Translations under genes and position numbers: made by a program
From: Azolla caroliniana
Lineage: Eukaryota > Plantae > Polypodiophyta
Reading direction: 5' to 3'
Assembly: GCA_043228905.1 (NCBI GenBank)
Contig: JBHGNT010000012.1
Location: 18,228,001 to 18,292,000, forward strand
DNA length: 64,000 bases
The notes under the pieces: generated by a model
The model's database searches: none
What the model saw: the letters and a program-made list of their open reading frames with translations, nothing else
Told to the model about the DNA's origin: nothing
Shown: positions 225 through 61,909 of the stretch, one piece after another
How positions within the stretch are numbered: the first letter of the stretch is position 1
How the letters are laid out: every line of letters starts with the position of its first letter

Positions 225-756
225 ATGGAAGGCGGCAGCAGCGGGCAGCCGGTGATGATGGTGCTGAATGCGCAGAACTACGCCGACTGGAAGATAAAGA
301 TGGAGGATCTGCTCATTGTTCGGGACCTGTATGAACCAATCGACAGGTCGGAAATACCCAAGGGGGTACTTGAGACGGAATGGAGGCTTCTGAACCGGAA
401 AGCCGTTGCAACCATTCGGCAATACGTCGACGTGAGCGTTCTACAACATGTGGCGAACGACACCAACGCATATGAGATGTGGCAGAAGCTGTCGGGCCTC
501 TACGAGAGGAAGAATGCGTTGAACCGGACCTCCCTGATGAGGAAGATAGTGAACCTCAAGTACCGGGACGGCGAGAGTATGGTAGAACACGTAAGCACGT
601 TCATGGGATTCGTGAACCAGCTTGCGGCGATCAAGTTCCCGTTGGAGGATGCAATGCAAGCCATCATCCTGATGTGTACATTGCCGGCAAGCTGGGAGAA
701 CTTGGTGGTGACTCTCAGCACCTCCTGCACCGAAGATAACTTGTCCCTACAAACGG
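225..756 (+). pseudogene. gag: Copia A gag, N-terminal part, interrupted by Gypsy B
   Basis: LNAQNYADWKIKMEDLL..AYEMWQKLSGLYE; collinear with Copia C gag up to SLQTV. Confidence 0.93.
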
Positions 757-1549
757 TGTCGAGATATTACGCAAGTGCGTGTGGAAACGAGGCGGGACCG
801 CGGGGGTCTCGAACCAAAGAGCAAGCGAGGGAGGAGAAAGAGAGAGAACCGGCTACGCAGGACCGGGGATACACAGGGACACGGCCCTTCAGCACGGAGA
901 ACGCGAACAGACACCGACACAGACAGATGCGAATGACTAAATATGTATATTAACAAAAATGGCTAACACGACTACAACCCTCGATGGGGGCACAGGTTGG
1001 TTACAACCGAACAGGCCGGCGAACAAATGCCGATGCTTCTTCGCTTCGACGCACAAAGGGGCAGCAGGTCGGAGGTGCTGCCGGAAGCACTCGGGCGTTC
1101 CTCGAAACAGCGCGAGCCTCCTCGGGACCCTGCACAGAAAGCTATGGAGCTCAAGAAGGAAGGAAACAGAGAGAGAAGCGTCCAGAAACGGTCCGACAGC
1201 ACTTCGTCCTCTCTGCGCGAGATGCCTGCAACCGCTCTTTCCAGCTCCTTATATAGGCCGACGAGCAGGCCGTCATGTCAGCTTTATTCCCTGTCCCTTT
1301 CGAACAGGGATCCGCTCCGTTCTTCACGCATCCGCGTAGTTACGCCGCCGACTCGTACAGTTCCTTAGCTCGCGCGCGCGACCGAAAAGACTGTTCGCGC
1401 GGTCTTTGTCTCCACTTGTGTTAGGGCCCGTTCCTGCCGATTATCCTCCTAATTCGCTTCTATCTACAACTTGGAGCTTGCGCGCGTGAAGAACCGGTTC
1501 CCACGCCTTGGTGCGCCGATTCCGCTTATGGACGGTTTTCTTCACGACA
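757..1549 (-). repeat. 3' LTR of Gypsy B
   Basis: Matches 12654-13446; three mismatches seen (1464, 1478, 1518); adjacent PPT GGTGGGGGCGGA on the minus strand. Confidence 0.95.
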
Positions 1550-1620
1550 TCCGCCCCCACCTAACCGCGCATCCTCCGGTATGCGCCAAGAGAGTTGGGA
1601 CGGAGAAAACCGGCCCGTCT

Positions 1621-4600
1621 TCATTCCTCGCCCGTCGGTTCTTCCTCGTTTTCGGATCGTTCGTCACTGCTGACTAGGAGAGCCGGGTCTGGCTCGTCGT
1701 CGTGTCGCTTCTTGAACGTTTTGATCCGCTTCCCTGCAACCGGTATCGCCATTCTCGTGCCGTCGAGTTCCGCCAGGTGATATGTCCCGTTGTCATTGGC
1801 GCTCCGTACCACGTAAGGCCCGAACCACCTTCGTGCGAACTTCCGTGTAGCTCGGTGCTGGTTGTCGAGGCTGCTGTCGTAGACGAGCACCCAGTCACCT
1901 TCGTCGATTTTCTTCGGTCGAACCTGGCTTTGTTCTTTGTCCTCGCCACCCGGAGCTTCTCCGCAGCCAGTTCCACGTCCTCCGGTCTCCGCTCGAGCTG
2001 TCGTATACGCGCGGCCAACAACTCCTCCCGGCTCATCTCGTCCCTCCAGTCGACCGTTGCCCACGAGGAGATCGTCCGTTCCATCGGCATGATCGGCTTC
2101 TGGCCGAACATGAGCTCCGTCGGCATGTACCCGGTTACCGAACTGTGCGTGGTCCGGTCTGCCCACAAAGCATAAGGTAGCAGCCGCGGCCAGTTACCGA
2201 CTCGGCCTCCGCATGCCCGAACCAACGCCTTGACGATCGGCCCGTGTCCGCGCTCCACCTTTCCATTCGCCTCCGGATTGTACGCAGTGGTGAGCGAGAG
2301 CTTGACTCCCAGCCGGTCGAACAGCTCCGCGGCTTCTTCGGCGTCCAACTCCCCTCGGTCAGCCACGATCTTCCCGACGCACCCGTACCGGCATATCACG
2401 TCCTCGATTAGGAACCGACATACGGCCGCGGTCGTTTTGTTCGGAAGGGCCCGGCCTTCCACCTGGTTCGTCAGATCCTCCCGCGCTAGGACCAGGTACC
2501 GCATCTGTCCTACCCCCATTGGCATCATCACCAGATCTACCATCCATTTGAAGTGGATGGTCGGAGGGTACGTAGGGTGAAGCTCGTCCCGGTGTCGGAC
2601 CACGGAGTGCATCTGACAGCTCTCGCAAGTTGTCACGAATCGATGCACGTCCCGGTACAGGCCCGGCCACCAGTACTTCTCCTTTATCTTCTCGAATGTG
2701 GCCCAAGTTCCACGGTGTCCGGCCCAAGGGCTGTCGTGGTAGGCCGTCAGCAGCTCCTCCTGTTCTTCCTTCATCGCCACCACCCGGAGCGGAGCGCCGT
2801 CCCTCTTCTTCGGGTGCTTCCATAGATAGCCATCCCGGAGAAAGAACCGGTACGCTTTCTTCCGGATCCGGTTGGCCTCGTCTTTCGTCCATGACGCATC
2901 CGGCGCCATTGTCCTCAAGAACCCGCCGATCTGCAGCCACTCCTCGTCGTACTTGCTCGCGTCGAAGTCGTTAAGCGCCGGAGTGCTCGTCCCGTCGGTT
3001 GTTACGTATGCTACCTCGAAGAAGTCCACGCCGACCTCTTCGTCCTCCGAAACCATGCCGCCCTCGTCATCGAACCTCGCCCTCGAAAGCATGTCGGCCA
3101 TGGCGTTGTCTTTCCTGGAAATGTGTCGTATTTCCGGGTCCAGGGACTTGATGTACGCTATCCACCTGAGCATTGCCAGGTCCGGCGTCGCGCATCCGGA
3201 AACCATGCCGAGAATCGGCATGCAATCCGTCTCTATGATTACCTCTGTCCCGATCAGATAGTCCTTGTCGGCCTTCACCGCCGAAACGATACCCCAGAGT
3301 TCGCGTTTAACCTGGGCGTATCCTCGCTGCCGCTCACTGAGGACCTTCGCGCCGAATCGGATCGAAAACCGATTGCCGTCCTCGTCTTCTTGGTTGACGA
3401 CCCACCCGATTTCGGTCGGACTCGTGTCAACCGTTATGTACACTGGGGTGCCCTTCCTGTAGACGGCCTTTCGGAGCGCCGGTGCTGCCGAAAGAGCCTC
3501 CTTCAGCTTCCGGACCGACTCCGTGTGCTTGTCTAGCCATTCGAATCTTCGCCCTTTCTTCAATAATCCGTACAGCGGCTCCGCGACGTGCGCGTAATGT
3601 GGGATCCATATGTGGTAGAAGGCGCATGCTCCCAAGAATCTTCGTACTTCCGTGACCGAGCTGCAATCAGGCTTCATCGCGGAGATGGCTTCTACCTTTG
3701 CCGGAGACGGTTTCCGGCCATATGGTCCACATAAATGTCCGACCACCATGATTTCCGACTGCCCAAAGGCTGACTTCTCCCCCGAGAAGGTGAGCCTCGC
3801 ATCCTCTAGCCTTTGCAGCACCTTCTCGCAGTCGTCGATGTGCGTCATCACGAATCGCCGGCATCCGTCCGGCCCGATCGTCTCGTCCTTCTCTTCTACC
3901 GGGCATCCCTTGATCGGGATGTCATCTAGAAACAGCATGGTGATGTCCGGGATGCAGTCCCTCAGCACCTTGTTCATTGCATTCACCATGTGGGCCACCG
4001 AGTTGGTCCCTCCTTGCGGCAGCGTACACATCCGCACTAGGCCGAGGGGAGTTCGCATCGTCGTAATGTCTCTGCTCTCCACGGCTAGCTGGAACTGGTC
4101 GTACCCTGAGTATAGATCACCGACCGAGTAAATCGACCTTCCGGCGAAGGCCTCCGCGAACTTGTCTATGGTCGGTCTGATCCCTGCGTTCCGAATGGTC
4201 ACTCTGTTGACCGGCTGCAGGTCCTGAATGAAGCGCAACGATCCGTTTTTCTTTGGTACTGTAAACCATCGGTTTGAATATGGGGCGCTCGACGGCTCGA
4301 GAATGCCCATATCAACTTTCTGCTTCAACAGCTCCATCAACTTCGGGATGTGAGCTCTTGGAACCGGAATTGGCTTGAGATTCCACGGTACATGCGGTAC
4401 CGTGAATATCACCATTGGCTCTACGATCGTCGGGTCTACGCACCCGATTTCCTCCGGTGAGAATGCGAAGGCTTTCCCGTGCCTTCCGAGCATTCTCCGA
4501 AACCGGTCTTCCTCCACCGGCAGTAGGAACCCGCCCCCACCGATCTTCAGCTCGCGGAGCGTCTCGTTGGTGAAGGCGTGTCCTATGCAGGCCGGATCTC

Positions 4601-5083
4601 GTAAGCTGGGGTCCGATGCAACCCCTTTGATTCGGGATTCGCTGCCCTCCGGTAAGGGCGCCGCAACTGGCCTCACCTTCCGGTCCACAGTCTTGTACTT
4701 GGTGCTAACTCGGGCCGTCCGTTCCGACTCGAGCCCTCGACCGAAGTCCGCGATGACTTCGTACATTTCTTCGGAACATACCGGTATCGTCCGGTCTTCG
4801 TTAAGGTCTTCTTCGACTACCTTCCCCAGCATTCCCAAGGTGTCGTCGAAGGAGACTGCCTCCACGGCTCCGTCGATTTCTTCGTCAGGGCCGAGAACTC
4901 CGCACGCCCGAAGTCTCCCCTCCGTCTTTGTTTTCTCTCGGCCGGCGATGCCGACCATCGTACATGCTCCGCTGTCAGAGAAGCAAAATTTCCTACCTAT
5001 TGTACACGGTTTTATCGTACAGATGTGGGGTTTTCCCGGAGCATCCAGACTGTCGCGGCCCCACGCCTTGGCAGTCCTCTCTA
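1621..5083 (-). CDS. pol: Gypsy B pol (RT-RNase H-integrase), probably reached by -1 frameshift; small frameshifting deletion near 1915 in the integrase C-terminus
   Basis: ORF 1674-4958: RT DLYSGYDQ, LPQG, FLDD; RH TVDTS, ETDC, ADMLSR; INT HHCC and D-D-E (MVD, VAD, KVE); GPY tail in ORF 1621-2166. Confidence 0.92.
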
Positions 5084-5479
5084 AAAATCCTCTCGGTTTT
5101 CGGAACCGAGGGAGTCGCGGTTACGTTCGTGGTTCGGCCGTACCGTCAGAAACTGGACCGAATGGCGCCCGTCTTGGCTTTTGACCCTCGCGTAGGCCGA
5201 ACCATTGTCCAGCACCTTGGTCTCCATTCGTGCCGCCGTGATGTACGGCTCTCCCAGTATGACCGGATGCGAAGACGTCTCCTGCACGAAGAAGTGCTGG
5301 TCAATCTCGACGTCGCCGATCTTGACTCGCACATTCGGACAGGCCCCGTGCAGTTCCTCGGTGGCGCGCGTTGCTGCCCTTATTTTCCACCCGTGCTTGG
5401 TGTTGATCGGCCATTTGCCCTTCTTATAGAAGTCCATGGACATCAAATTGATCTCCGATCCGTGGTCCACCAAAGCTAT
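5081..5479 (-). CDS. Gypsy B aspartic protease, end of the Gag-PR ORF, cut off by Copia C
   Basis: ALVDHGSEINLM..VILGEP..REDF-stop; continues the frame of 10882-12636. Confidence 0.88.
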   Translation of the reverse strand: MALVDHGSEINLMSMDFYKKGKWPINTKHGWKIRAATRATEELHGACPNVRVKIGDVEIDQHFFVQETSSHPVILGEPYITAARMETKVLDNGSAYARVKSQDGRHSVQFLTVRPNHERNRDSLGSENREDF

Positions 5480-6148
5480 TGTTGGGATTTCGGTCCCTCC
5501 GGATGGGATGTCCGGAGATGAATGACGGCAAGCCCGGTTGCGGTTACGGAGCCGGATGACGAATGTACCCGGAGAGAGATCCGGATGACGGCAAGCCCGG
5601 TTCCGGTTACGGAGCCAGATGATGAAGACCCTGGCTACGGAGCCGGATGCTGAAGACCCCGGTAACGGAGCCGGATGACGAATGTACCCGGAGAGAGATC
5701 CGGATGCGGGGACATATTTGTGAATATGTTTTGCCAAGAGCCCTTGAGGCTATATTTGTAAATAGCCCGAAAGTCATATGTGTATAAATATGACTTAGGG
5801 CAAACAGTTTAAATGTTGTTGCTCATTTTATGTTTTCAGCCGAGAGAGCGAAGTGAGAGCAGCCGAGAGAGGGAGAGAGAGAAAGGAAGAGGTCAACGCC
5901 TCTGTGTATTACCGCCGCCTGTGGCGAAGACAGTGAGCTCAAGGTTGTTGCCTTGTAGCTTCACCATTGTACATCTCAGTGTATAGTGATAGTTGGAGTT
6001 TGAGGACTCCCGTGGTTTTTCCCATTTAGGGTTTTCCACGTAAAATTCCAGTGTACCTTTTCTCTCTACTGTCCTCGTGCACTTTGTATTTCCCAATTTC
6101 TGTGAGTTGATCCTATTCCTCGGTTGTGGCCGAGCACTGTTTATATCA
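5480..6148 (+). repeat. 5' LTR of Copia C, with CCGG-rich short repeats near its 5' end
   Basis: TG..CA; recurring GGAGCCGGATGA and CCCGGTT units at about 5510-5705. Confidence 0.96.
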
Positions 6149-6179
6149 GAGTGGTATCAGAGCGACGGTAACACAGAAA

Positions 6180-7145
6180 ATGGAAGGCGGCGGTAGTGGG
6201 CCTCCGGGCATGATGGTGTTGAACTCACAGAACTACGCCGACTGGAAGATAAAGATGGAAGACCTTCTCATCGTCCGAGACCTGTACGAACCGATCGACA
6301 ATGCCGAGATACCCAAGGGAGTAATAGAGTCGGAGTGGAAGCTCCTGAACCGGAAAGCCGTAGCGACGATTCGGCAATATGTCGATGTAAGCGTCCTACA
6401 ACATGTGGCGAACGACACCAACGCATATGAGATGTGGAAGAAGCTGTCGGGCCTCTACGAGAGGAAGAATGCGTTGAACCGGACCTCCCTGATGAGGAAG
6501 ATAGTGAACCTCAAGTACCGGGACGGCGAGAATATGGTGGAACACGTGAGCACGTTCATGGGATTCGTGAACCAGCTTGCGGCGATCAAGTTCCCGTTGG
6601 AGGATGCAATGCAAGCCATCATTCTGATGTGTACATTGCCGGAAAGCTGGGAGAACTTGGTGGTGACTCTCAGCACCTCCTGCACCGAAGATAACTTGTC
6701 TTTACAAACGGTAAAGACAAGCATTTTGAACGAAGAAGCGCGTCGGAGAGATAAAGAACCGGTTTCCGATCCGAAGATGCTGCTTACCGAATCGGATCGG
6801 GGAAGACAATGGAACCGGAGTCCGCAAAGACGGGAGAAGTCGGGGACCCGGTCGCAGTCAAGAGGAAGGCCCACGTGCTTCCACTGTGGGAAGCCGGGGC
6901 ACTTCCGGAAGAATTGTCGGCATTACCGAAAGGACAACGGAGCCGACGACACCGATTCGAAGAAGTCACCGGAGAGAAACGGTGCATACCGGGGAGCCAC
7001 GGACCGGAGAGGTCCGGATCGGCGAGGGAAGGACCGGAAGGGAACGACGGCACTCGTGGCAAGTGAAGAAGAAATAATGCTCATTACCGAAGAGAGGGAG
7101 CTGAACCTTGCCGGTGAAATACTTCTCATCCTACACAGCCGGTGA
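6180..7145 (+). CDS. gag: Copia C Gag with CCHC zinc knuckle; runs out of frame at the protease deletion
   Basis: CFHCGKPGHFRKNC; terminal ILLILHSR is off-frame relative to A. Confidence 0.92.
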   Translation: MEGGGSGPPGMMVLNSQNYADWKIKMEDLLIVRDLYEPIDNAEIPKGVIESEWKLLNRKAVATIRQYVDVSVLQHVANDTNAYEMWKKLSGLYERKNALNRTSLMRKIVNLKYRDGENMVEHVSTFMGFVNQLAAIKFPLEDAMQAIILMCTLPESWENLVVTLSTSCTEDNLSLQTVKTSILNEEARRRDKEPVSDPKMLLTESDRGRQWNRSPQRREKSGTRSQSRGRPTCFHCGKPGHFRKNCRHYRKDNGADDTDSKKSPERNGAYRGATDRRGPDRRGKDRKGTTALVASEEEIMLITEERELNLAGEILLILHSR

Positions 7146-10100
7146 GCACGGCTGTGTCCGGATGGGAAATGAAGGTACGTGCCGGATTGCCGGCATAGGA
7201 CACGTGTGGCTGATGACATCAACCGGATGCAAGATGCTGTTGAAGGATGTGCGACACGTTCCGGAGGTCCGATTGAACCTGATCTCGGCCGGGAGGCTAG
7301 ATGATGAAGGCTACACGGGTAGCATCCGGAACGGTGTCATGAAGTTCAGCAAGGGGAGCTTGATAGTGGCTCGGGCCCGGAAGGTCAACACACTGTACCT
7401 GATGAATGCCTGGTTATGTCCGGAAGAGCTGAATGTGGCAGCCGACACTGCCGGTGAGCTGTGGCACAAGAGACTGTGCCACATGAGTGAGAAGGGGATG
7501 AAGAGGCTTGCAGAAGACAATCTTATTCCAGTGAAGCATGTGCACCTGGAGAAGTGCACCGATTGCCTGGCCGGTAAGCAGAACCGAACCTCCTTCCATT
7601 CAAGGCCACCGACGAGACGTAGCGCACCATTGGAGTTGGTGCACACTGATGTGTGTCAAGTAGAAACGAAGTCACATGGCGGAGCCCAGTACTTCGTAAC
7701 ATTCATTGATGATCACAGCCGGAAGCTGTGGACGGCACCGTTGAAGACAAAGGACCAAGTGTTGTGCGTCTTCAAAGAACTCCACGCGAGAGTGGAAAGG
7801 GAATCCGGCAAGAAGCTGAAAGCGATACGAGCGGATAACGGAGGGGAATACCGGGGGCAGTTCCAGGAGTACTGTCACTCGAAGGGAATCCGGCTCGAGT
7901 TTACTGTGCCGAAGACGCCGGAACTAAACGGGCTGGCCGAGAGGATGAACCGGACCATAATGGAGAGGGTCCGGAGTATGCTGGCACATGCAAAATTACC
8001 CAAGGGGTTTTGGGCTGAGGCAATGTCGACGGCGACATACGTGATAAACAGATCACCCTCAGTACCTTTGGACGGAGACACGCCGCAGAGAGTGTGGACC
8101 GGTAGGGAAGTATCCTACCGGCATCTGAAGGTGTTCGGGTGTCTCGCATACGTGCATGTGGCAAAGGACCGGAGAGGAAAGTTAGATCCAAAGACCCGGC
8201 CATGCATATTCCTCGGTTACGGCAACGACGAGTTCGGCTACCGAGTATGGGACCCGGTCGACAAGAAGATATTCAGGAGTCGTGATATCATCTTCATGGA
8301 GAACAAGACACTCGCCGACTGGGAGTCGGAGAAGAAGATGAAGAGCTCCAAGTTGACCGGTGAGGATAAACTCTACGAGGAGCAGTCCCGACCGGCGAGG
8401 GACCGGTTAACACTCGAAGATCCGGCCGTAGACGGTGAAGAAACAGAACCGGCCGAAGAAGAGGAAAATGATACCGGAACCGGCCCCGATCCCGAAATGG
8501 ATTCGGATGAAGAAGAATCGGAAGAACCGGTTACCGAAGCTCCGGAACGGAGATATCCTCTAAGAGAGAGAAGGGCCCCCCGGAGATTTCCGGAACCAGA
8601 GCACGTGCTGCTAACCGACGAGGGGGAGCCGGAGAGCTTTGAAGAAGCAAAACATGACATCCAGAGCCGCAGGTGGTTGAGTGCCATGCAGGACGAGATG
8701 GATTCCCTGCATGAGAACCACACATATGAACTTGTGGAGTTGCCGAAAGGAAAGCGGGCACTTCGAAACAAGTGGGTGTTCAAGCTGAAACCGGGAGATG
8801 CCGGAAACCCCCCGAGATACAAAGCCAGGATCGTGGTGAAGGGGTTTCAGCAGAAGAAGGGCGTCGACTTCGACGAGATATTTGCCCCAGTAGTGAAGAT
8901 GACCTCCATCCGGACGGTGCTGAGCATAGCGGCAAGCATGGACCTCGAGGTAGAACAGATGGACGTGAAGACGGCATTCCTTCACGGTGACCTCGAAGAA
9001 GAGATCTACATGCAGCAACCGGAAGGATTCGAGAAGAAAGGGAAGGAGCACCTGGTATGCCGGTTGAAGAAGAGCCTTTACGGACTGAAGCAGGCTCCCC
9101 GGCAATGGTACCGGAAGTTCGACTCCTTCATGACCGACGAAGGGTACCTCAAAACGCAGTCCGACCACTGCGTGTTTGTGAAGAAGTTCGAAGGAGGAGA
9201 CTTTCTAATACTCCTCCTGTACGTGGACGACATGTTGATCGTCGGATGGGACCAGGTCAAGATACGGATGCTGAAGAAGGCTCTTCACCGAACCTTCTCA
9301 ATGAAGGACCTGGGTCCGGCGAGGCAAATACTAGGGATGCACATCATCCGGGACCGGAAGAAGAAGCAGTTGTGGCTGTCACAGGAGAAGTACGTGACGA
9401 AGGTGCTTCACCGGTTCAACATGTCGGAAGCAAGACCGGTCGGATCGACCCTCCCGGCAAACTGCAAGCTGTCCAGCAAGCAAAGTCCCAAGACAAAGGC
9501 TGAAAAGGAGGATATGATGAAAGTGCCGTATGCCTCAGCCGTCGGGAGCTTGATGTACGCCATGGTGTGTACGAGACCGGACATAGGATATGCAGTCGGA
9601 GTGGTGAGCCGGTACATGAGCAATCCCGGCAAAGAGCATTGGAACGCGGCCAAGTGGATACTCCGATACCTGAAGGGCACGACAAACGTGTGCCTCCGAT
9701 TCGGCTCCGGCAAGCCCGAACTCGACGGCTTCACCGATTCGGATATGTCGGCTGATGCAGATACCAGCCGGTCCACATCAGGGTATGTGATGACGTATGC
9801 AGGGGGAGCTGTTTCATGGCAGTCGAGACTGCAGAAGACGGTTGCGTTGTCAACCACGGAGGCGGAGTACATGGCGGCTGTTGAAGCCGGCAAGGAAATA
9901 ACATGGATGAAGGACTTCAGTAGAGAGCTCGGTATCCGGCAGGAGGAGTACCGGCTCTACTGCGACAGTCAGAGTGCAATCCACCTTGCGAAGAACGCGG
10001 CCTATCACTCCCGGACGAAGCACATCCAGCGAAGATATCACTGGATCCGGGAAAGGATAGAAGACCAGGAGTTCATGCTGACGAAGATCCACACGGACGA

Positions 10101-10197
10101 GAACGGCTCAGATATGCTGACCAAAGTGCTCACACCCGACAAGCTGGAAGCATGCCGGAAGAGGATCGGATTGGAGAGACATCCCATGCCGAAGTGA
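7118..10197 (+). CDS. pol: Copia C pol (PR remnant, integrase, RT, RNase H); open but out of frame with gag
   Basis: WHKRLCH..CTDC; VHTD, RADNGGEY, NGLAER; RT YVDD; RH TDSD, EAEY, DSQSA. Confidence 0.93.
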
Positions 10198-10207
10198 AGG
10201 GGGAGTT

Positions 10208-10876
10208 TGTTGGGATTTCGGTCCCTCCGGATGGGATGTCCGGAGATGAATGACGGCAAGCCCGGTTGCGGTTACGGAGCCGGATGACGAATGTACCCGG
10301 AGAGAGATCCGGATGACGGCAAGCCCGGTTCCGGTTACGGAGCCGGATGATGAAGACCCTGGCTACGGAGCCGGATGCTGAAGACCCCGGTAACGGAGCC
10401 GGATGACGAATGTACCCGGAGAGAGATCCGGATGCGGGGACATATTTGTGAATATGTTTTGCCAAGAGCCCTTGAGGCTATATTTGTAAATAGCCCGAAA
10501 GTCATATGTGTATAAATATGACTTAGGGCAAACAGTTTAAATGTTGTTGCTCATTTTATGTTTTCAGCCGAGAGAGCGAAGTGAGAGCAGCCGAGAGAGG
10601 GAGAGAGAGAAAGGAAGAGGTCAACGCCTCTGTGTATTACCGCCGCCTGTGGCGAAGACAGTGAGCTCAAGGTTGTTGCCTTGTAGCTTCACCATTGTAC
10701 ATCTCAGTGTATAGTGATAGTTGGAGTTTGAGGACTCCCGTGGTTTTTCCCATTTAGGGTTTTCCACGTAAAATTCCAGTGTACCTTTTCTCTCTACTGT
10801 CCTCGTGCACTTTGTATTTCCCAATTTCTGTGAGTTGATCCTATTCCTCGGTTGTGGCCGAGCACTGTTTATATCA
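10208..10876 (+). repeat. 3' LTR of Copia C
   Basis: Matches 5480-6148. Confidence 0.96.
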
Positions 10877-10881
10877 GCTAT

Positions 10882-12636
10882 CACCGGTTCCTGGACATCG
10901 CCGATCTTCACCGGGGTTTCCGTGGTCGCTCGGGCCCAGTGTGGTCTCGAATAGTGGCTTTCCGCCCACTCGTCTCCTAGCGCCATGTCGTCTAGGTGCG
11001 TCGTCCGCAATTCCACCGGTCTTTCCGGTTCTGTCTCCGTTGACAGCCTCTTCCGTTTCACCAAGTCCACGATGGAGTCGTTGAACTCCTTCTTGGCGAT
11101 TCCCAGCACCTCTCGTAACGACAGCTCCACCTTGCTGTCGAGGATCCGTTCCTCCAGGACCTTTCGTAAGTCCGTGGTCCTTTCTATCTCCGTCCCCAGA
11201 CGGTACCCGCCCTTCTGGGGTTTATCTTGCGTACCGGCCCCGCCGGCTTCGTCCCGTCGTGGCCCGGACCGGGTCTCGTATCGTTGTGAGGGCCCGGTCG
11301 TCCCGGGTTTCCCCACCCGCTTCTCTTCTACCAGAGCCTCGTAGTTCTGGCAAGCGGCTTCCACGAAGCCCGTCTTTTCCTCGACCGGGTCGCTCCACCC
11401 GGTCATCTCCCGTACCCGTTTCTCCGCACGGTCCGATTCCTCCCTTTTAAGCCTTGCACCGGCAAGGCCTTCCAGCATCGTCGGCCAGAATCTGGCTTTG
11501 CTTTCCCTTCGGGCCTCGCCGCCCCCGACTCGAATGCCGGCCGACGCCGAGTAGTGGACGGTTTCCGCGTGTCGGGCCGCCGCCTCTTCCATCAACCTTT
11601 TCATACCACCTCGCCCGTCGTTTCGGCTCAGGGCCCTTCGGGTGTCGCTGGCATGCACCCGTCCTTCCCACAGGTACACCACCCTGTTCCTCAGCGCCTC
11701 CGCGAAGTCGCCAGAGTCCTTCCGAATGTGGCCGACTTCATCGCACCACATGCACCTGTTTCCTGCCGCCGGCCGTCGGTCACGAGCCGGTTCGCCACCT
11801 TCCCTTCGGGCTTGCGCGATTTGGAGGTCTTTCATCGCCCTCGTCAATTCCTCCAGCACCGCTCCTCCGATTGAGCCTCTGACTACGCCGGTCGAAGCCG
11901 AACCGGTTTCCAACCACTCTCGGGTCTCTTCCTTTCGCACCTGTGGCGCTGGTTCGAGCTTCCTTGCTGCGACCGAGCCCGACCCGGTTGCCCCGTTATC
12001 CGCCCATTCTCGCCGTTTGTCGAAACGGCCACAGACTTTCTTGACAGCCGCCCAGTCGGTAGTGAGCCCGTCTTCGGTTTCCAGCAAGAGGCCCACTTGC
12101 TCCCGATCCCGCTCGTCGACCGACTTGACAAACAGCAAGACCCGGCTCGTGTCCAGGATGGTTCGGTCGAGCGCCGAAAGGCGCGCAAAGTTTTCCTCGA
12201 ACTCCCGGAGGAGTGCCGACGCGTTTCTTCCCTTCCCCGGGGACTCCACCCATTCCATGAACCTTCGCTTCGAAAGCCGGAGCGCGTCGTCCAGCCCGTA
12301 TTTCTCTAGGAGCCGACCTTCGAACTCCTCCCAGGTACGGCTCTCCGCCCGCACCTCGAGCACCTCCGCATGGATGCTCGGCATCGCCACTCGGGGAAAT
12401 CCGGCAAGACGCCTTTCTTCCGGAATGTCCCGCATCAGCATCTCTGCACCGTAGGACGCCAAATACTTCGTGGCATCCTTCCCATCGAACCAGCCGATCG
12501 TGCCGACGACCGCCTCAATAGCTCTGTCGAGGGCACCGGTGCCCTCGCGCGCGTTTACAATCCGATCCACGGCCGAAGCCATGGCCTCTGCAAGATCCGA
12601 CCCCCTCATCTTCTGCTCTTCAGCCGCCTCCTTCAC
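10882..12636 (-). CDS. gag: Gypsy B Gag, interrupted just before the protease active site
   Basis: FDGKDATKYL; knuckle CMWCDEVGHIRKDS with the last Cys replaced by Ser; homologous to gag of D, E and K. Confidence 0.88.
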
Positions 12637-12649
12637 GTCGGGTTCACCA
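12633..12649 (-). promoter_or_regulatory. Primer-binding site (tRNA-Trp) of Gypsy B
   Basis: TGGTGAACCCGACGTGA, complementary to the plant tRNA-Trp 3' end as I recall it; same motif at 27439-27455 (-) and 31099-31115 (+). Confidence 0.88.
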
Positions 12650-12653
12650 AAGA

Positions 12654-13446
12654 TGTCGAGATATTACGCAAGTGCGTGTGGAAACGAGGCGGGACCGCGG
12701 GGGTCTCGAACCAAAGAGCAAGCGAGGGAGGAGAAAGAGAGAGAACCGGCTACGCAGGACCGGGGATACACAGGGACACGGCCCTTCAGCACGGAGAACG
12801 CGAACAGACACCGACACAGACAGATGCGAATGACTAAATATGTATATTAACAAAAATGGCTAACACGACTACAACCCTCGATGGGGGCACAGGTTGGTTA
12901 CAACCGAACAGGCCGGCGAACAAATGCCGATGCTTCTTCGCTTCGACGCACAAAGGGGCAGCAGGTCGGAGGTGCTGCCGGAAGCACTCGGGCGTTCCTC
13001 GAAACAGCGCGAGCCTCCTCGGGACCCTGCACAGAAAGCTATGGAGCTCAAGAAGGAAGGAAACAGAGAGAGAAGCGTCCAGAAACGGTCCGACAGCACT
13101 TCGTCCTCTCTGCGCGAGATGCCTGCAACCGCTCTTTCCAGCTCCTTATATAGGCCGACGAGCAGGCCGTCATGTCAGCTTTATTCCCTGTCCCTTTCGA
13201 ACAGGGATCCGCTCCGTTCTTCACGCATCCGCGTAGTTACGCCGCCGACTCGTACAGTTCCTTAGCTCGCGCGCGCGACCGAAAAGACTGTTCGCGCGGT
13301 CTTTGTCTCCACTTGTGTTAGGGCCCGTTCCTGCCGATTATCCTCCTAATTCGCTTCTATGTACAACTTGGAGCGTGCGCGCGTGAAGAACCGGTTCCCA
13401 CGCCTTGGTGCGCCTATTCCGCTTATGGACGGTTTTCTTCACGACA
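12654..13446 (-). repeat. 5' LTR of Gypsy B
   Basis: Next to the PBS; TATATAAG on the minus strand near 13150. Confidence 0.95.
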
Positions 13447-13450
13447 ACGG

Positions 13451-17612: not shown

Positions 17613-20306
17613 TGTACGACGAATTCGACCAGATGTTTAGTCGTCTCCCCAATACGAACCAAGTGTTGCTTGAAGAGGACAAGACTTTGTACTTCTTGAA
17701 GGTCGTGGACATAAAGGATAGACGGGAGTTGGGGACTCTTCTTTAAGATGATACCCAAGCAAATGGGCTCGTAGCGGACTGGATCGCGGTGAAGCGGGCA
17801 TGCAATAGGCTCGACAACCGTCGCCAATGGGTTGATGACACCGACTTGACGGGACCGACTACCACGGAGAAAGCAAGACCGCCGAAAGTAGCTGAGCCGC
17901 TGAGACAAAGTAACGTGGAAGAAAAGAAGATTGATGACGACATCATTGAAGAGCTAGCGAAGAAGTTCGAGAAGGTCATGCTAGCCAACATGAATCGTCG
18001 AGGCCCTAAAGGAAAAGAACCCTTTAGATGCATGTGGTGCGATAGCATGGACCACATGAGAAGGGATTGTGCGAGCCTTCGAGAGGCGATTCGACAAAAT
18101 ATCGTATACATAGAGGACAACATGATCTGCTCAAGCGAGACTAGAAGACCCCTACGGGTGAATTTCGGAAGAGGAGGAATGAAGAAATCTATGGAGGATG
18201 CTGATGCGACTCATGTGGATGCGATGCACTATGCTGCGTCGGCCGGAATAAGAGTCGGGAAAGACAAGACTGAAGCTGCTAGAGCGGGAGCAAAGTTTTG
18301 GACTTCCGTTCTCGAATATGAGAAGAAGGGAAAAGTCACATCGAACGAGGTAGAGCTTGCGGACCGAAACATGCAAAGCATAACCGGGTGGTCGGATCCG
18401 GTGGACGACAACACCATACTCGCAGAGGTGATGTGCGACAACCACGAGGTGTTCGTCGAAGAAAAGAGAAAGAGAATAGAAGAGCAAGGGCCATCAAAAA
18501 GACATGAAACAAGGAACGCGAAAAAGAAGGACGATGCGGAGATGAGTCGACCTTTACAAACGGAGGAACGAGAATCAAGCCGAAAAGGGGAGCCGAGCAT
18601 ACGAGTTGAAGAAACGGTTCGGCCCGTGAAGGTTGGTGTCGAGGACCCCGCTCGGAGGACAAGGACCATACCTACCTATAAGCTAAGGTCGGACATAGAG
18701 CAGACGACGGACCTAAAGAAGATTCTCGAAGAACGAGTTCGTGATAGCCACGTAACTTTGTCCTTGAGGGAATTGCTTGGCATTACGAAGAAGGAGTTCC
18801 ATGACACGATCGTGGACCTTGTAAAGAGAAAGAGACAACAATCGGACGAGGAAGAAGAGAAGCCGCAAAAAGCAAAAACGAATGCCATAACGATGGCAAG
18901 AGACGAAATCGATGAAGATATGGTGGACAGCCACTACACTCGACCTCATTGGGCACGAGCGACAACGGAGACGCCGGTGAAGATCGGGGAGAAGAAAGAG
19001 ACCGTCGTAGCCTTGATCGACCACGGCTCGGAGATCAACCTCATGTCAACCGACTTCTACAAAAAAGGAAGATGGCCAATCAATACAAACCACGGATGGA
19101 AGATTCGCGCGGCAACAAAGTCTACGGAGGACTTGTACGGAGGTTGTCCCAATTTCAAAGTCACGATCGGGGATGTGGAGATGGATCAACACTTCTTCGT
19201 ACAAGAATCGGCGTCGCATCCTGTCATCCTAGGGCAACTTTATATCACATCATCTCGGATGGAGACCAAAGTGTTCGATAATGGAGCAGCCTTCACACGA
19301 ATAAAGAGTCTTGACAACCAAAGATCGGTCCAATTCCTAACAGTGCGAGCCAATCATGAAAGGAATCGAGATAGTCTCGGAGGCGAATCCTCGGATTTTT
19401 AGAGCGGACTATTGAAGCATGGGGGACAAATAGTCCGAGCAATCACAAGACCCCACAAGAAAGAAGAGTGTGTGGATTGCAAGGAGAAGCAACATGTGTC
19501 ACACCTAGTGGCGCATGTAAACTAGTACTACCTGACAAGAAGCACAAGCGCCGGATACAAGAATTTGAGAAGATGCTGAAAGAAGAGAATATAATAGAAG
19601 AAGGAGAGTTCGTGACTCATATTATGGAAGAAGCCTCATTTAACGACACCATCGGCGAAATCGAGGACGTCGTGGACTTGAGCTATCTTCACAACCAACG
19701 CGTGATTTCGGTTAACTCTGTCAACATGTATGCTATCATCGATGAATACCGTCGTGGCATCTCGATGAAGGAAGCTGACATCAACACGAAATATAAAACG
19801 GTGGATAAGAAGATCAAGCCAGTTGCGGTTCCGCTACCGGAAGATAGCTGGCAAAAGATGAAGGAAGTCGCTAACGATCCAAGCTTAAGAGATCCGAAGA
19901 AGATAGGTCATGACTTCCCTAAAGAGATGAAGGGGAAGCTACGAGTTGGAAAGGAGGATTTCCTTCTCCCTGAAGAGGAGCGAATGTTTCGCGATATGCT
20001 TAAGAGACATGGGAAGGCTTTCGCATTCTTCCCACGAGAAATCGGATGCGCCGACCCAAAGGTTATAGAGCTGACGGTGATCTTCACGGTGCCTCATGTG
20101 CCTTGGAACTTAAAACCGATACCGGTTCCGAGAGCACACCTTCCGAAGCTGATCGAGCTCTTAAAGGAGAAGGTGAGTATGGGAATTCTAGAACCGTCGA
20201 ATGCTCCTTATTCCAATAGGTGGTTCACGGTGCCGAAGAAGAATGGATCATTGCGATTCATCCAAGATCTTCAACCCGTCAACAAGGTGACAATTCGAAA
20301 TGCCGA
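17613..20306 (+). mobile_element. Gypsy D internal fragment (gag 3' part, PR, start of RT); same family as E, opposite orientation, 3'-truncated
   Basis: ORF 17789-19402 (CMWCDSMDHMRRDC, LIDHGSE) and ORF from 19468 (RT start to TIRNA), then abrupt junction. Confidence 0.92.
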
Positions 20307-20413
20307 AAATCTTCACACTATTGCCGAAAATCTTCACGACATCCACCCCCACCAAACCGCAAGTCCTCCGGTACGTGCCAAGAAGAGAGAAAGTGAGATT
20401 TCAGCTACGGTGA

Positions 20414-24298: not shown

Positions 24299-25596
24299 TG
24301 TCGCGAAAATACGACAAGGATACGTGAACGTTGAGGCAAGACCCCAGGGCCTTTGTCTAGAGGATATCAAATTCGTGTATTTATATACTAAGAATTAACC
24401 GAAATGAGAAAGATTAACAAATTTCATTAATAAAAGGGAAAGAAAGATTACAATCAATCCCAAGATTGGGATTACAAAAGTTTTATCTTATGGAGATGAT
24501 TAGAATAATAGATAACAGGAAATAAGAGATTATGATTCTTGAGTGATATGGCTTTGACAAGGAATTTTGGATTTTGAGAGATTGCTTCCGTATGGAAATT
24601 ATGGTTTACTTGAGAGATAGCTTCCGTAGGGAAGATTAGGGTTATTGGCTTCGATAAGATAAGAGAGCTCCCCAACAAAAGAAAAAAAAATTTAGATAAT
24701 ATGGAGAGTGAGTCCTAGTGTAGGAAAAAAAATGGAATAAATATGGAGTTCTCCCTTGATCATAGCCTTTCCACTTTTTGTTGCATGGCCTCTACTTTTA
24801 GTTGCCTAGCTTTTTCTTTTGGTTGCATGTGACTGTCCACATGACCTTTACTTTTTCCATGCACTCCTTCTTTAGTTGCTTGCGTCCACATGGCCTTTAC
24901 TTTAGTTCTCTTCACTTTACTTTATTTTGTTGCATGATCCAATCTTTCGTCCGTCCGTGTCCAACCTCGTCCGGTAGCCGGTTCCATTTTGCTTGCCGGT
25001 CGGTTCCGGTTCCGATTTTGCTTTCCGGCCGGTTCCGGTTTGCTTGCCGGTTCCGGTTCCAGTTTTGCTTGCCGGCCGGTTACGGTTTTGCTTACCGGCC
25101 GGTTTCCGGTTTTGCTTGCCGACCGGTTCCGGTTTTGCTTACCGGCTGGTTCCGGTTCCGGTTTGCTTGCCGGCCAGTTCCGGTTTTGCATACCGGCCGG
25201 TTTTCGGATTGCATACCGGCCGGTTTCCGGATTTGCTTACCGGACCTGTTTTCCGGATTTGCTTACCAGCCGGTTTCCGATTTTAGGGAATTTGGCCACC
25301 ATCATCCATCAAGACAAAGTGGCCAAAGTGCTCTTAGCACAAATGAAAAATGAGGGAGCTCAAGGTGTTTATATAGCCAGGGCCTTAACTTTCCTATCTA
25401 TGTAGGATAGTTCTAATTTCCCTATCTAATCAAACTTTATTTTCTCATAACTTGATATGTATTTCTCCATTTTGTATATAGTAAAATACATTTTGAAGCT
25501 CTTGAGTATATCCATCTTTCTATAGTAAGCTACTAATCTAATCTATAATAATTATTTCATTATTTTTTTACATAGTGTGTGAAGATTCACACGACA
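24299..25596 (-). mobile_element. Solo LTR (1298 bp) of another family of the same Gypsy group, inserted in E
   Basis: TGTCG..CGACA ends; TSD ACGG at 24295-24298 and 25597-25600; no PBS, PPT or coding sequence; E frame continuous across it; TATA on the minus strand near 25370. Confidence 0.92.
24970..25280. repeat. CCGG-rich minisatellite inside the solo LTR
   Basis: Repeated CCGGTTCCGGTTTTGCTT-like units. Confidence 0.9.
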
Positions 25597-27463: not shown

Positions 27464-28525
27464 TGTCGTGAAGATCCGTCACTACGCGCGAATCGTGAGG
27501 CGGAACCACCGGGGTTCTGGACCGGAAGGATTCAAAGTCAGTACAAGCTTTGGCGCAAGCTTTAGCGAGAAAGTACTTAAGATAGATTGGGAAAGAGAGA
27601 AGTTGAGATTAAACGATTGAGAGAGATTGATTGAACTTTTATCTTTAGATTTAAGAAACAAGTTACACGATCAATTCGATAACGAATTTCTTCTTCTTAA
27701 TTTCATAACCCAAAAAAGAACGTTTTTTCTCCTTCCCCCCCCCTATTTTATAGATGCTCTCATGCATATGATGCACGTGAGGGTACAAGACATGCATAAA
27801 ATGCATGTTTGCCATTTGGCGCTCATGTATTACATGTGGTGCATGATAACCATGTCACTCATTTTAGCTCTCATGTATGAGAATTTACATGTAAAAGTAC
27901 AATGATAGAAATATAAATTCAACTAAATGTCATGGCTTAATGGTAAGCCAATTGACTCCTAACTCGGAGGTGCAAGGTTCGAATCCTTACTTGCCCTCCT
28001 TGTATATGTATATATATTTATATATTTATTTATCTAGTCACCGGACGCCGGATGCCGTCGTCTCACCGTCGCCGGTGCGCCGCCGGTTACCGGTGGCTAC
28101 CGCCGGATGTTGTCACCTCGCCGTTGCCGGTGTGCCACCGAATCACCGGCTCCATCGCCGGTCCGGTTTTGGTTGGCCACCTCCACTCTTAGTTCAAGTT
28201 ACCTTGGACTCTCTATGCTCCACACATAGACACAAAGATAATAGCTTTTGCTCTACCTTATATATGATGAGAGCCGTATTTGTCGTGCCTATGTGGGATA
28301 TCTCACAATTTTCTCTTTTCCTTTCACAAACTTTATACCCTCATATCTTGACATTTAGTTGTCCGTTTCTCGTGTAATAAATTGCACTCGAAACCTCCAT
28401 CATTTTGTACTTAGATATTAAATTTATTTAAAACGTTATCTTCACTATTATTGTATTATGTGATTCATACTCGATTTTGTACGGTTTATGGGATTTTCAC
28501 ACTATTGCCGAAAATCTTCACAACA
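27464..28525 (-). repeat. 5' LTR of Gypsy E
   Basis: TGTCG..CAACA, next to the PBS; end matches the stub at about 20312-20341; flanked by ATGT. Confidence 0.9.
27926..27997 (+). other. tRNA-derived sequence with Pol III A and B boxes inside the Gypsy E LTR (pseudo-tRNA or SINE head)
   Basis: A box TGGCTTAATGG 27933-27943; D stem GGCTT/AAGCC; loop CTCCTAA; B box GGTTCGAATCC 27976-27986; acceptor stem not formed. Confidence 0.7.
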
Positions 28526-30283: not shown

Positions 30284-30390
30284 GAAACATATCCAGCGGA
30301 GGTACCACTGGATCCAAGAGAGAGTAGAAGTTGGGAGAAAGTAGAAGATCAAGAGTTCGTGCTTACGAAGATCCACAGGAAGGAGAACGG
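30284..30390 (+). pseudogene. Copia H RNase H C-terminal fragment, host of G and F
   Basis: KHIQRRYHWIQER..EDQEFVLTKIH..ENG, homologous to A about 16813-16902. Confidence 0.85.
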
Positions 30391-33300
30391 TGTCGTGGAG
30401 AAAACCGTCCCTAGGCGGAATCGAAGAATATCGGGAGAATCGGCGGAGTGCATCATGTGCACTCACCCTTGTATAAACGTGTGAATAATGGGGGGTGCCT
30501 TTATGGTGCCGACTGGGAGTCAAGTCGAGACAAAGAATCCCATGTAAATCGGGATTTATCCCACATTGTAACGCATCCCTCTCCTTGTTCTATAAAAGGA
30601 AGGGATGGTCCCTTGTAGAGGGGTTGCCCATTTTGTGTTAGAGGGTATACCGTTAGATTAGGGTTAGGCGGTTCTATCTTGGTAGTTTCTTCTTTTTTTT
30701 CTCTTCTTCCTCTTCTTCTTCGTCGTCGTGAGGGTTGAGAGTTTGTGTCTGTTCAGGGTTTTCTTCTGCTCGGTCTCCTGTGCAAGGCCCCGCTCTGTGC
30801 GACGAGCCCGAGAGCTCCCCGAATGGCGGCTTGGCAGCAGACTGTTGTTGTAACCTAGCCTACCTCGGTCCGTCTCGAAGCAGGGGTTGTATTCTTTCTC
30901 TTGTAATATACATATTGGTAACTGTCTGTGCATAAGAGTCGGTGCACGCGCATGCTTTCTTTCCTCTCTCCCTCTCTCGTGTTTGGTTGCCTCCAGGCCA
31001 TGTCCGGAGTCAGTTTTCTTGTCTCTTGAGTTTCCTCGTTCGAGACCCTCGTGGTCCCGCCCCTTTCTACACACACGTGCGTAACAACGCGACATATTTG
31101 GTGAACCCGACGTGAAGGGCGGCAAGGGAGAATGGAGTTGGAAGCAAACGACTTCGCACAACTTTTTGTCGAAGCGGTGAGGGAGTTTGGACGAGCAACA
31201 TCAAAAAGAGAGACGGTGCAGCAAGCTGTCAAACGCGTGGTCGAAAGAGTCGGCCGTTTCAACGGGGACAAGGTCCCATACTACTTGGAAGCCTACAACG
31301 CGGAAATGGAGGAGAGAGGCGTAGACGAGGCGTTGAGGTTGGAGTTCTTCTGTCGGGTCGTAGTCGTCCGTATGCACGCGGAAGTGAAGGAGCTCCGAGA
31401 AGCTCATAGTTCATGGGAGGCCTTCGAAGAGGCGCTCCTGCAGGCATATGGACGACGGCGGAAGAGCCGGGGACGACACGGCTTCGACTAGTGGGTTGCG
31501 TCGGCGAAGACCCACCGGGGTACAACGAAGGCGTTCCGAGAGTTCGAGCGACGGCTTGCTCGGCTCCTGGAGTGGGAACAAGGTTTGGTGGGGGTGGACC
31601 AAGTCCTGTTGTTCGTTAAGTCGATTGACCGAGCGAAACGGGAGGCCATCGAGATTGAGCTCGAAGACGAGGACGGAGCGAATGGCCTTACCGAGGACTG
31701 GTCGAAGGTCGGAAGGGTATGCCAACGGCTAGATGACGAGTGAGCCGAGAAGGCTAGGAGGAAGGCACGCGACGGCGCGCCATCATAGCGGGAAGAGGCC
31801 GAACGGCAAAGAGAATCGGCAAGGCTCAGCTTCGGGGCCAAGATTGTGGAGGCATACGTAGCTCTCGAGGCAATTCTCGAGGAAAAGGAAAAACCGAGGC
31901 CGCAAGCCAACGCCGAGGAGACAAACTTGTCTCGCAAGATGGCAGAAGATCGGTACCACGGTACCACGGGAGAGGGTGCGGAACAAAACGCCCTCTCGGT
32001 TTGCGGAAATAGAACGGCCAAGAACAAGGTCAAGATACCGATCGCAGAATCAGAACGTTGGGCCTGGCGGTTTCGGGCACGTCAACCCGAAACTCCGAAC
32101 ATAGGAGAAGCAAGCCCAGGCGGGGCTTGCGCGATTGGTAAAGGGATGACCACCAACCATGAGGAGCCGGTGGCTACGGACAAGGGCGTAAATAGGACGG
32201 GCGATTCTACGCGTCTTCTGACACTTGCTCCCAAGACGATGGCAGTCGGGCCCAAGTGCCCACGTGAATCCCAAGAGGAGGAAGGCGGCGGCGAGAGACC
32301 GAGAATCATCGGCGACACGATACGAGGAAGGAGTGGACAAGAGCCCTCGGAACCGATTCCGGAGAACTCAGCATTCGGGCCCTTACGCCCATGTGAGACC
32401 GAGGAGATGGATGACTGTATCAAGGAGTCATGGCACGATCCCAGTGAAGATGGATGGGAAGTGGCCTGCGAGAAGGTCGAAGAAGAGACCATGAGACGAC
32501 CCAACCGAGGACCGAACCGCGCGGCACTCCGATTCGGGTGGAGCGCGATCCGGTCGTGGATTGTTCAACCAGGGCCAGAATCAGCATGAAGGTGCTGATA
32601 TGGGAGAGGGTGCAGAACGAGCCGCCCTCTTTTACATGGGGAGAAAGACTAGTCGGGCGAAGGTCGGGAATCGAGAAGAAGTGATCAAGGGTTCAGAACG
32701 AGTCCGGCAAGGTCGGCATCAAAGCCGAAACTCCGGACATTGGAGAATCAAGACCAGGCGGGGCTTGGTTGATCACAGAGCAGATGCTTTCCACCGACAC
32801 CCCTAAAAGGGTCGGTGGCCCCAGACGAGTCGCCGAAAGACGTTGCGAAATCAGTTACCCCCCATCTTGTCTAGAGACTTCGGCAGTTCGACCGACGTGG
32901 CAACGTAAGACCGAAAGAGATGGAAGATGGAGGCAGGAGCACAGCGAGGAGAGCGACGACGAGTTTAGGAGAAGTACAAGGGATGAAGAGGAGAACGAAG
33001 ACCAGTCCTACGGATATCCTCACACTGATCCGGCTGTCGGCCCGAGTGTCAGCGTGAGTCCTATAGGAGAGGTCGGTGGCCACAGGAGAACAGGACCCGT
33101 CAATCCAGAGAATGACGGGCGGACCCGGACGAGAACGGGGCGGGACGGACTTCTGGATAACTAGTCCGGAAGATGGGAGAGAGCAAGCCTACGAAGAGGC
33201 CGGGAACACGGTACGTCGGTACCATGGGAGAGGGTGTGGTGCGAGCCACCCTCTCGACTTGTGAAGAAGGAAGACCTAGGATAAGGTTCGGTGAAACGAC

Positions 33301-43010: not shown

Positions 43011-43377
43011 AGTGTAGCCCAAGTCACCTTGAACATTCTATGCTCCACACATTAATAAAATGAACATGTTTTGGTTTCCCTTATATATCATGGGTTCCAA
43101 TGTTGTCCTATCTATGTGGGATATCTCATAGTTTTGTCTTTTCTTTCTTCTTCAAACTTTACACTCACATAACTTGATACTTGTTTATACGTTTCATGCG
43201 TAGTAAAATACACTATGAAGCTCTTGAAGACGTCTATCTATATGAATACATTAAGCTAATCTTAAATAATTGTTTTACTAGTTTTCATATCGTGTGTGAA
43301 AAACCACACGACATTCACCCCCACCAAACTTGCACATCCACCGGTATGTGCCAATTGTGGTGAGGTTCCTCTTTTAA

Positions 43378-61842: not shown

Positions 61843-61845
<3 letters not shown>

Positions 61846-61908: not shown

Positions 61909-61909
<1 letters not shown>

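What the first reader, a model, noticed from the sequence alone, without database searches (positions are those of the whole stretch)
753..13450. This Gypsy group makes 4-bp TSDs centred on CpG
Seen: B has ACGG on both sides, the solo LTR ACGG on both sides (24295, 25597) and K ACGT on both sides (41361, 50507). F has ACGG on its one visible side (30387) and E has ATGT (28526), which could be deaminated ACGT. The intact Copia C site (CAAACGGTAAAG) confirms a 4-bp duplication for B. Copia C has a 5-bp TSD without CG. Inference: the integrase prefers (A/C)CG(G/T). In an AT-rich genome that would steer insertions into CpG-rich young transposons without a chromodomain and could drive nesting. The sample is only five sites.
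Basis: partly seen in the sequence, partly recalled or inferred. Interest (0 to 1): 0.7.

Follow-up and report, generated by a model that had tools for sequence, protein, structure and literature searches.

The report
Phygy-type retrotransposons insert at CpG
Several families of plant jumping genes in this genome sit almost exclusively in CG dinucleotides with a four-base duplication, likely because their integrase picks CG itself; this habit is already published for the Phygy lineage, to which they most likely belong.

Summary
Of about 1,640 outer LTR ends of the B family, 91% are followed by NCG and about 99% by CG, TG or CA. All 32 perfect duplications among 38 resolved copies are 4-bp NCGN. 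TG/CA ends are mostly later decay: 11 of 13 resolved cases trace back to CG. Two other families do the same. The motif is wider than (A/C)CG(G/T): V-CG-B for B, NCGN overall. Flanks are CpG-richer than random DNA but match a CpG-weighted null, so the CG rule alone can explain the nesting.

The trait is not new. Neumann et al. 2019 list Phygy elements with 4-bp NCGN duplications (100% of 186), a tRNA-Trp primer site and no extra domain. These elements meet those features; placement on the reference tree could not be tested. The scan noted a similar NCGN habit in another, likely fungal, genome (e1-10582392, not tested here). How the integrase reads CG, and whether methylation matters, is open.

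The parts
757..13446 (-). Element B, Phygy-type Ty3/gypsy retrotransposon (about 7.3 kb without the nested Copia), inserted in the gag of a host Copia
   Evidence: LTR pair and termini; RT, RNase H, integrase and DUF4100 matches
753..756 (+). TSD of B, left copy (ACGG)
13447..13450 (+). TSD of B, right copy (ACGG)
12654..13446 (-). 5' LTR of B (793 bp, TGTCG...CGACA)
   Evidence: 3 differences in 793 columns from the other LTR
757..1549 (-). 3' LTR of B
12633..12649 (-). Primer-binding site of B, complementary to the 3' end of tRNA-Trp, 4 nt from the LTR
   Evidence: 6 of 6 fetched host loci with the matching tail are tRNA-Trp(CCA) by ARAGORN
1550..1566 (-). G-rich purine tract next to the 3' LTR (likely PPT)
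1674..5120 (-). pol frame of B (RT, RNase H, zinc-binding and core integrase); the frame breaks in the integrase C-terminal part; no chromodomain, no archaeal-type RNase H match
10621..12663 (-). gag frame of B (weak DUF4100 match), interrupted by Copia C
5480..10876 (+). Copia C nested in B, 5-bp TSD GCTAT (control); holds an uninterrupted homolog of B's target site at 6708-6711
24299..25596 (.). Solo LTR of a related family, TSD ACGG (24295-24298, 25597-25600), inserted in element E
19002..19005 (-). Single ACGG in an inverted duplicate of E that lacks the solo LTR (natural empty site)
27464..28525 (-). 5' LTR of element E; tRNA-Trp PBS at 27439-27455; outer flank ATGT at 28526-28529 (likely decayed ACGT)
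30391..31094 (+). 5' LTR of element F; outer flank ACGG at 30387-30390; tRNA-Trp PBS from 31099; second LTR starts at 34390 and breaks off near 34567
41365..50506 (-). Element K (9.1 kb, long LTRs with tandem repeats), TSD ACGT (41361-41364, 50507-50510), inserted just behind the PBS of a Copia

Best explanation
These Ty3/gypsy retrotransposons, most likely of the Phygy lineage, sit in CG dinucleotides with a 4-bp duplication, likely because their integrase cuts the two strands 4 bp apart around a CG step that it selects by sequence. Shown: the 4-bp NCGN duplication in three families, the origin of most TG/CA ends by later decay of CG, a tRNA-Trp primer site, no chromodomain, and flanks as CpG-rich as a CpG-weighted null predicts. 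Inferred: a foamy-virus-like intasome bends the target and unstacks the two central base pairs, which favours a pyrimidine-purine step. An added base-specific contact, most plausibly from the conserved loop between the first strands of the SH3-like C-terminal domain, would narrow that to CG. Inferred consequence: host methylation has drained CpG from old and genic DNA, so the CG rule steers new copies into young, CpG-rich transposons and builds nests without a chromodomain.
For: Paired TSDs: 32 of 38 resolved copies (40 fetched) have an exact 4-bp duplication, all NCGN, none 5 or 6 bp. Genome-wide: 1,494 of about 1,633-1,642 outer ends are NCG, and 62 TG plus 62 CA were listed. CG rather than any YR step: in 13 resolved TG/CA cases, 10 have CG at the other end and 1 has TG/CA on opposite ends; TG, CA and TA are each about twice as common as CG in the background. 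Other families: K 49 of 59 outer ends CG, all 59 CG/TG/CA/TA; solo-LTR family 59 of 69 CG, all 69 CG/TG/CA. Relatives in other assemblies share the PBS and termini; 4 of 5 distinct outer junctions are NCGN and 1 is NTGN. Control: 4 Met-tRNA-primed elements found in the same stretches, plus Copia C, all have 5-bp TSDs without central CG. Context: flank CpG density 0.056 against 0.035 for random positions (bootstrap p 0.0005) and 0.050 for CpG-weighted positions (not different). Lineage table: Phygy = 4 bp (100%) NCGN, tRNA-Trp 81%, no extra domain. The closest solved structures are the PFV and Ty3 integrases. PFV makes 4-bp TSDs, unstacks the central step, prefers YR there and uses Arg329 of the CTD loop (PMC4005685, passages).
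Against: No biochemical test: integrase as the cause is inferred. No Phygy reference sequence was at hand, so the lineage call rests on features, not a tree. B-family copies (about 7.3 kb) are a little shorter than the published Phygy range (7,656-9,968 bp). 2 of 13 resolved non-CG cases have CA on both sides, so the rule is not absolute; 26 of 40 such stretches could not be resolved. The genome-wide counts need an intact 16-bp LTR end, so they lean to young copies, and duplicated sites were not removed. The context test rests on 32 sites and 40 background stretches and cannot exclude selection against genic insertions. The fold model is weak (pLDDT 69, pTM 0.47; parts of the CTD loop under 50) and gives no residue-level contact.
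Confidence: 0.8

Rival explanations
1. The integrase (or a partner) recognises methylated CpG, so the element reads the host's silencing mark directly and aims at methylated DNA.
For: The target CpGs are evidently methylated at least after insertion: about 124 TG/CA ends against 13 other single or shifted changes and 2 TA (hand counts). All five window sites lie inside other retroelement-like DNA. The element lacks a chromodomain.
Against: Flank composition fits plain CpG weighting with no significant excess. CG-centred targets also occur in Drosophila errantiviruses (CGCG; PMC5408687, passages), a host with little CpG methylation (recalled), and in Ginger1 (PMC2836005, passages). No methyl-binding domain matched in Pfam.
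Confidence: 0.15
2. Only DNA shape is read: the integrase takes any flexible pyrimidine-purine step, and CG dominates because of where the elements land.
For: PFV integrase prefers a central YR step. TG and CA ends exist, and ACAC/ACAC is a perfect CA-centred duplication.
Against: TG, CA and TA together are 20% of background dinucleotides against 3.5% CG, yet all 32 perfect TSDs are CG, and 11 of 13 resolved TG/CA cases derive from CG.
Confidence: 0.03
3. The motif is an artefact of misplaced element ends (the TGTCG/CGACA termini extend into the flank) or of copies spread by segmental duplication.
For: The termini themselves contain CG. A few flanks recur at more than one place.
Against: Inner LTR junctions (AAGA and TCCG) fix the boundaries and lack the motif. 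The outer two bases vary between insertions but match within each pair. Two natural empty sites hold one copy of the 4-mer.
Confidence: 0.02

Closest known systems
Phygy lineage of non-chromovirus Ty3/gypsy retrotransposons (Neumann et al. 2019, PMC6317226; passages, section 8 and supplementary table 5 read)
   Same: 4-bp NCGN TSD, tRNA-Trp PBS, no chromodomain or extra domain, coding region filling most of the interior, TG...CA ends
   Different: Described there as specific to Physcomitrella patens (later reported by name in the liverwort Apopellia, PMC12885004, passages). Here it is at high copy in another genome, with B copies of about 7.3 kb. Flanking-base bias (V-CG-B), decay of TG/CA ends and the CpG-weighted context were not seen in the passages read.
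TatI and Selgy lineages (same table)
   Same: 4-bp TSDs; TatI also uses tRNA-Trp
   Different: TatI carries an archaeal-type RNase H (100%), for which no match was found here. Selgy uses tRNA-Ala and is about 5 kb. Neither is listed with an NCGN preference.
Ginger1 DNA transposons (PMC2836005, passages)
   Same: Gypsy-like integrase, TGT ends, 4-bp TSD centred on CG (CCGG 75%, CCGT/ACGG 24%)
   Different: DNA transposons with TIRs and no RT; stronger preference at the outer bases
Drosophila errantiviruses of the ZAM subgroup (PMC5408687, passages)
   Same: Sequence-specific Gypsy integration at a CG-containing palindrome (CGCG)
   Different: The central step is GC; AGT/AnT ends; env-bearing animal lineage
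Prototype foamy virus and Ty3 integrases (PDB 3oym, 4e7k, 7q5b; PMC4005685, passages)
   Same: Best sequence and fold matches to this integrase; PFV makes 4-bp TSDs with an unstacked central YR step
   Different: PFV has only a weak YR preference; Ty3 is targeted by TFIIIB at tRNA genes

Membership tests
Phygy (Ty3/gypsy, non-chromovirus) | 4-bp TSD with NCGN motif | tested here: met
   against the table
Phygy (Ty3/gypsy, non-chromovirus) | PBS complementary to tRNA-Trp | tested here: met
   PBS in B, E and F; 6 of 6 host loci with the matching tail are tRNA-Trp
Phygy (Ty3/gypsy, non-chromovirus) | No chromodomain, no aRH, no extra ORF | tested here: met
   Pfam scans at E 0.001 and 0.1: only a weak SH3_Tf2-1 match after the core; natural intact relatives end in an acidic tail; none of 120 listed homologs carries a chromo family
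Phygy (Ty3/gypsy, non-chromovirus) | Gypsy domain order PR-RT-RH-INT | tested here: met
   RT, RNase H, then integrase in one frame; the protease was not matched by Pfam in B
Phygy (Ty3/gypsy, non-chromovirus) | Length 7,656-9,968 bp | tested here: inconclusive
   K is 9,142 bp (inside); B copies are mostly 7.2-7.5 kb, just under a range drawn from one species
Phygy (Ty3/gypsy, non-chromovirus) | Clusters with P. patens Phygy elements in an RT-RH-INT tree (the primary definition) | not testable with these tools
   The reference FASTA and element table of PMC6317226 were too large to read; no named P. patens protein among listed homologs
TatI | Archaeal-type RNase H in the polyprotein | tested here: not met
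   no second RNase H family matched in B's pol or in P0003, P0004, P0021
Selgy | tRNA-Ala PBS, about 5 kb | tested here: not met
   tRNA-Trp PBS, 7-9 kb
Chromoviruses (Tcn1, Galadriel, Tekay, Reina, CRM) | Chromodomain at the integrase C-terminus | tested here: not met
Fungal Ylt1-like Gypsy clade (PMC2864245, passages) | RT-INT phylogeny | not tested
   Only a lead: the nearest ESM Atlas cluster is commonest in Basidiomycota (phylum known for 5 of 98 members); no tree was built

The most novel reading that the evidence does not exclude
CpG selection is an old integrase-encoded trait of a Gypsy clade that spans non-seed plants, charophytes and fungi, and the integrase reads 5-methyl-CpG itself. 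It would then use the host's silencing mark as a homing signal to gene-poor, transposon-rich DNA, in place of a chromodomain.
Probability: 0.15. Interest if true: 0.7.

Novelty: new member of a known kind. Interest (0 to 1): 0.3.

Why it matters
The target rule is in print as one sentence and one table cell for moss Phygy elements. My searches found no paper that explains it. This genome gives a large natural sample (over 1,600 outer ends in one family). It shows that the rule is CG-specific rather than a general flexible-step preference, and that it is enough to bias insertions into CpG-rich transposon DNA. That makes a simple, testable model for chromodomain-free nesting, and a candidate sequence-selective integrase for structural work. 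It also warns that LTR finders set to 5-bp TSDs will miss these families. It is a useful extension of a known trait, not a new system.

Tried and rejected
A genome-wide Copia control failed for lack of copies: the Copia C end matched only itself and the host Copia end matched 2 elements. The control therefore rests on 5 elements and the published 93.4% 5-bp TSDs. In one search one 5-bp call (L255) was a false boundary and was dropped; one search gives ACGT/ATGT for it. In one search, L241 paired with the inner LTR of a different element (71% identity) and was dropped; 26 of 40 stretches gave no partner LTR (one of these, L259, looks like a solo LTR with ACGT/ACAT and was not counted). In one search, two of 40 stretches gave no LTR hit at the threshold. 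Metagenome relatives are mostly collapsed contigs: 80 loci gave 8 junction rows, 2 of them inner junctions and 2 the same site. The AlphaFold model was too weak to name contact residues. Looking for a published TSD of Ylt1 (PMC5014426, passages), Cryptococcus TCN3 (5 bp, PMC12810828, passages), Culex elements (no preference, PMC3286476, passages), P. patens RLG families (PMC7466625, passages) and GingerRoot (6 bp, PMC6839031, passages) gave no CG rule. A search for newer REXdb lineage names returned nothing relevant (listing only). Boundary artefact and general YR preference were considered and rejected (see rivals).
Full report
What is in the window. Bases 1-52,000 are a stack of nested LTR retrotransposons. 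Element B runs from 757 to 13446 on the minus strand, with 793-bp LTRs that differ at 3 positions. It encodes a gag frame with a weak DUF4100 match and a pol frame with RT, RNase H and integrase. A Copia (C, 5480-10876) is nested in it, and B itself interrupts the gag of a near relative of that Copia. Related elements E, F and K and a solo LTR lie further on.

Observation. The duplication is therefore 4 bp.

Genome-wide test, B family. Of the 30 best LTR loci, 29 have CG at the centre of the outer flank and one has TG, whose partner LTR shows CG. I fetched 40 stretches around LTR pairs and 38 resolved. Of these, 32 have an exact 4-bp duplication, all NCGN and none longer. Three show internal sequence on the outer side, two differ by one C-to-T, and one has unrelated flanks. 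A 16-bp LTR end pattern has 3,358 matches. 1,494 continue with NCG. 109 have a non-C second base; of the 100 listed, 62 are TG, 28 are inner junctions and 10 are other (hand count). 77 continue V-C-H; 62 are CA, 10 are inner junctions and 5 are other (hand count). The remaining 1,678 begin like the inner junction; this is by subtraction, and a few outer ends may hide there. So 91% of about 1,633-1,642 outer ends are CG and 98.5-99% are CG, TG or CA. Background CG is 3.5% in 400 kb sampled at fixed positions on 21 of the long contigs and 6.4% in the window's TE part. The pattern favours young copies and duplicated sites were not removed.

CG, not any flexible step. I fetched 40 stretches around TG or CA ends, taken in listed order. 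Fourteen gave a partner LTR and one of these was a wrong partner. Of the 13 left, 10 have CG at the other end with the same outer bases, 1 has TG and CA on opposite ends (two separate decays of one CG), and 2 have CA on both sides. Most non-CG ends are thus later deamination of a methylated CG, and true CG use at insertion is likely near 98% (inference from these counts). TG, CA and TA are each about twice as common as CG in the background, so a general YR preference is excluded.

The motif. In the 32 perfect TSDs the first base is A 16, G 10, C 6, T 0 and the last is T 16, G 11, C 5, A 0, although T precedes 34% of background CGs. The K family (first 100 of 216 matches: 41 inner, 59 outer) gives 49 CG, 6 TG, 3 CA and 1 TA. 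The solo-LTR family (first 100 of 385: 30 inner, 1 ambiguous, 69 outer) gives 59 CG, 5 TG and 5 CA. Both tolerate TCG or CGA more often, so NCGN is the common rule. Relatives at 65-79% integrase identity in other assemblies share the PBS and TGTC/GACA ends; their 5 distinct outer junctions are CCGT, GCGG, ACGT, TCGA and CTGC. As a small control, 4 Met-tRNA-primed elements found in 80 stretches have 5-bp TSDs (AGTTG, CATCC, CTTCG, AAAGG), as does Copia C.

Nesting. CpG density within 500 bp of the 32 sites averages 0.056. Random positions give 0.035 (bootstrap p 0.0005) and random CpGs give 0.050 (95% range 0.040-0.059). Choosing any CpG at random is enough to produce the bias toward GC- and CpG-rich, transposon-like DNA. 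The genome sample is 42.6% GC overall, with CpG-poor stretches near 36% GC.

What it is. The PBS of B, E and F matches the tail of host tRNA-Trp. No chromodomain or second RNase H was found; the integrase ends in a weak SH3-like match and, in intact natural relatives, an acidic tail. Named relatives come from Riccia, Adiantum and Chara, which points to a non-seed plant host; an earlier unchecked note calls it likely a fern (e1-10587443), which I did not test. Neumann et al. 2019 (PMC6317226; passages, section 8 and supplementary table 5 read) state that Phygy elements are the exception among plant LTR retrotransposons in preferring NCGN. They list 186 elements with 4-bp NCGN TSDs (100%), tRNA-Trp PBS (81%), no extra domain and 7,656-9,968 bp. 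These elements meet the TSD, PBS and domain features; B is slightly short. TatI and Selgy fail on aRH and PBS. The tree-based definition could not be tested because the paper's sequence file and element table were too large to read; they may bear on length range and termini. PMC6911290 (passages) also reports 4-bp TSDs with GC-rich centres and Phygy nested in Tcn1 in P. patens.

Mechanism. The nearest solved integrases by sequence and fold are PFV and Ty3 (the model is weak). PFV makes 4-bp duplications, bends the target, unstacks the two central base pairs, prefers YR there and uses Ala188 and the CTD-loop Arg329 for base contacts (PMC4005685, passages). I infer the same geometry here, with an added base-specific contact that narrows YR to CG. 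The conserved CTD loop is the likeliest place, but no contact is shown. Direct reading of 5-methyl-CpG is the main rival. Nothing here demands it, and CG-centred targets are known for Ginger1 transposons (PMC2836005, passages) and CGCG for ZAM-group elements (PMC5408687, passages).

Novelty. The trait is known for the lineage. A whole-word search for NCGN with retrotransposon returned only the Neumann paper and one unrelated paper; searches listed no mechanistic study. The scan has an unchecked note of NCGN duplications in another, likely fungal, genome (e1-10582392); I checked its Ginger1 reference but not its data. With the Atlas lead to a Basidiomycota-rich cluster, it suggests that the habit may be clade-wide. 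Verdict: a real, well-supported feature and a new member of a known kind; interest 0.3.

Noticed in passing
window 17613-20308 against 22992-26992: An inverted duplicate (95-96% identical) of part of element E lacks the solo LTR and so preserves its empty site.
   Followed up: yes
window 41365-43313 and about 48499-50506: K's LTRs carry arrays of 164-410 bp tandem repeats and are only about 78-82% alike. The inner start of the right-hand LTR and the PBS were not found, yet the ACGT duplication is intact.
   Followed up: partly
window 12650-12653, 27456-27463, 31095-31098; loci L149-L215: The PBS stands 4 nt from the LTR in B and F and 8 nt in E, and a few nt with varying spacers in the relatives; 2-3 nt is the usual distance (recalled).
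   Followed up: no
L094, L096, L099: 3 of 38 resolved B-family stretches show internal sequence on the outer side of an LTR, which points to tandem or three-LTR arrangements.
   Followed up: no
alignment A1, columns 181-186 and 345-368: The integrase keeps an invariant D-R-G-E-L after the second catalytic Asp, with Glu at about the place of PFV Ala188, and a conserved C-terminal loop in the region that aligns with the Ty3 CTD loop.
   Followed up: partly
G000:C8:17.80-17.82 Mb and C16:4.99-5.11 Mb: Matches to the tRNA-Trp tail lie in dense arrays (about 1.2 kb spacing on C8), suggesting tandem tRNA gene clusters.
   Followed up: no
window 52001-64000: AT-rich DNA (33-36% GC) with CpG observed/expected of 0.16-0.5, against about 1 in the young retroelements.
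   Followed up: partly
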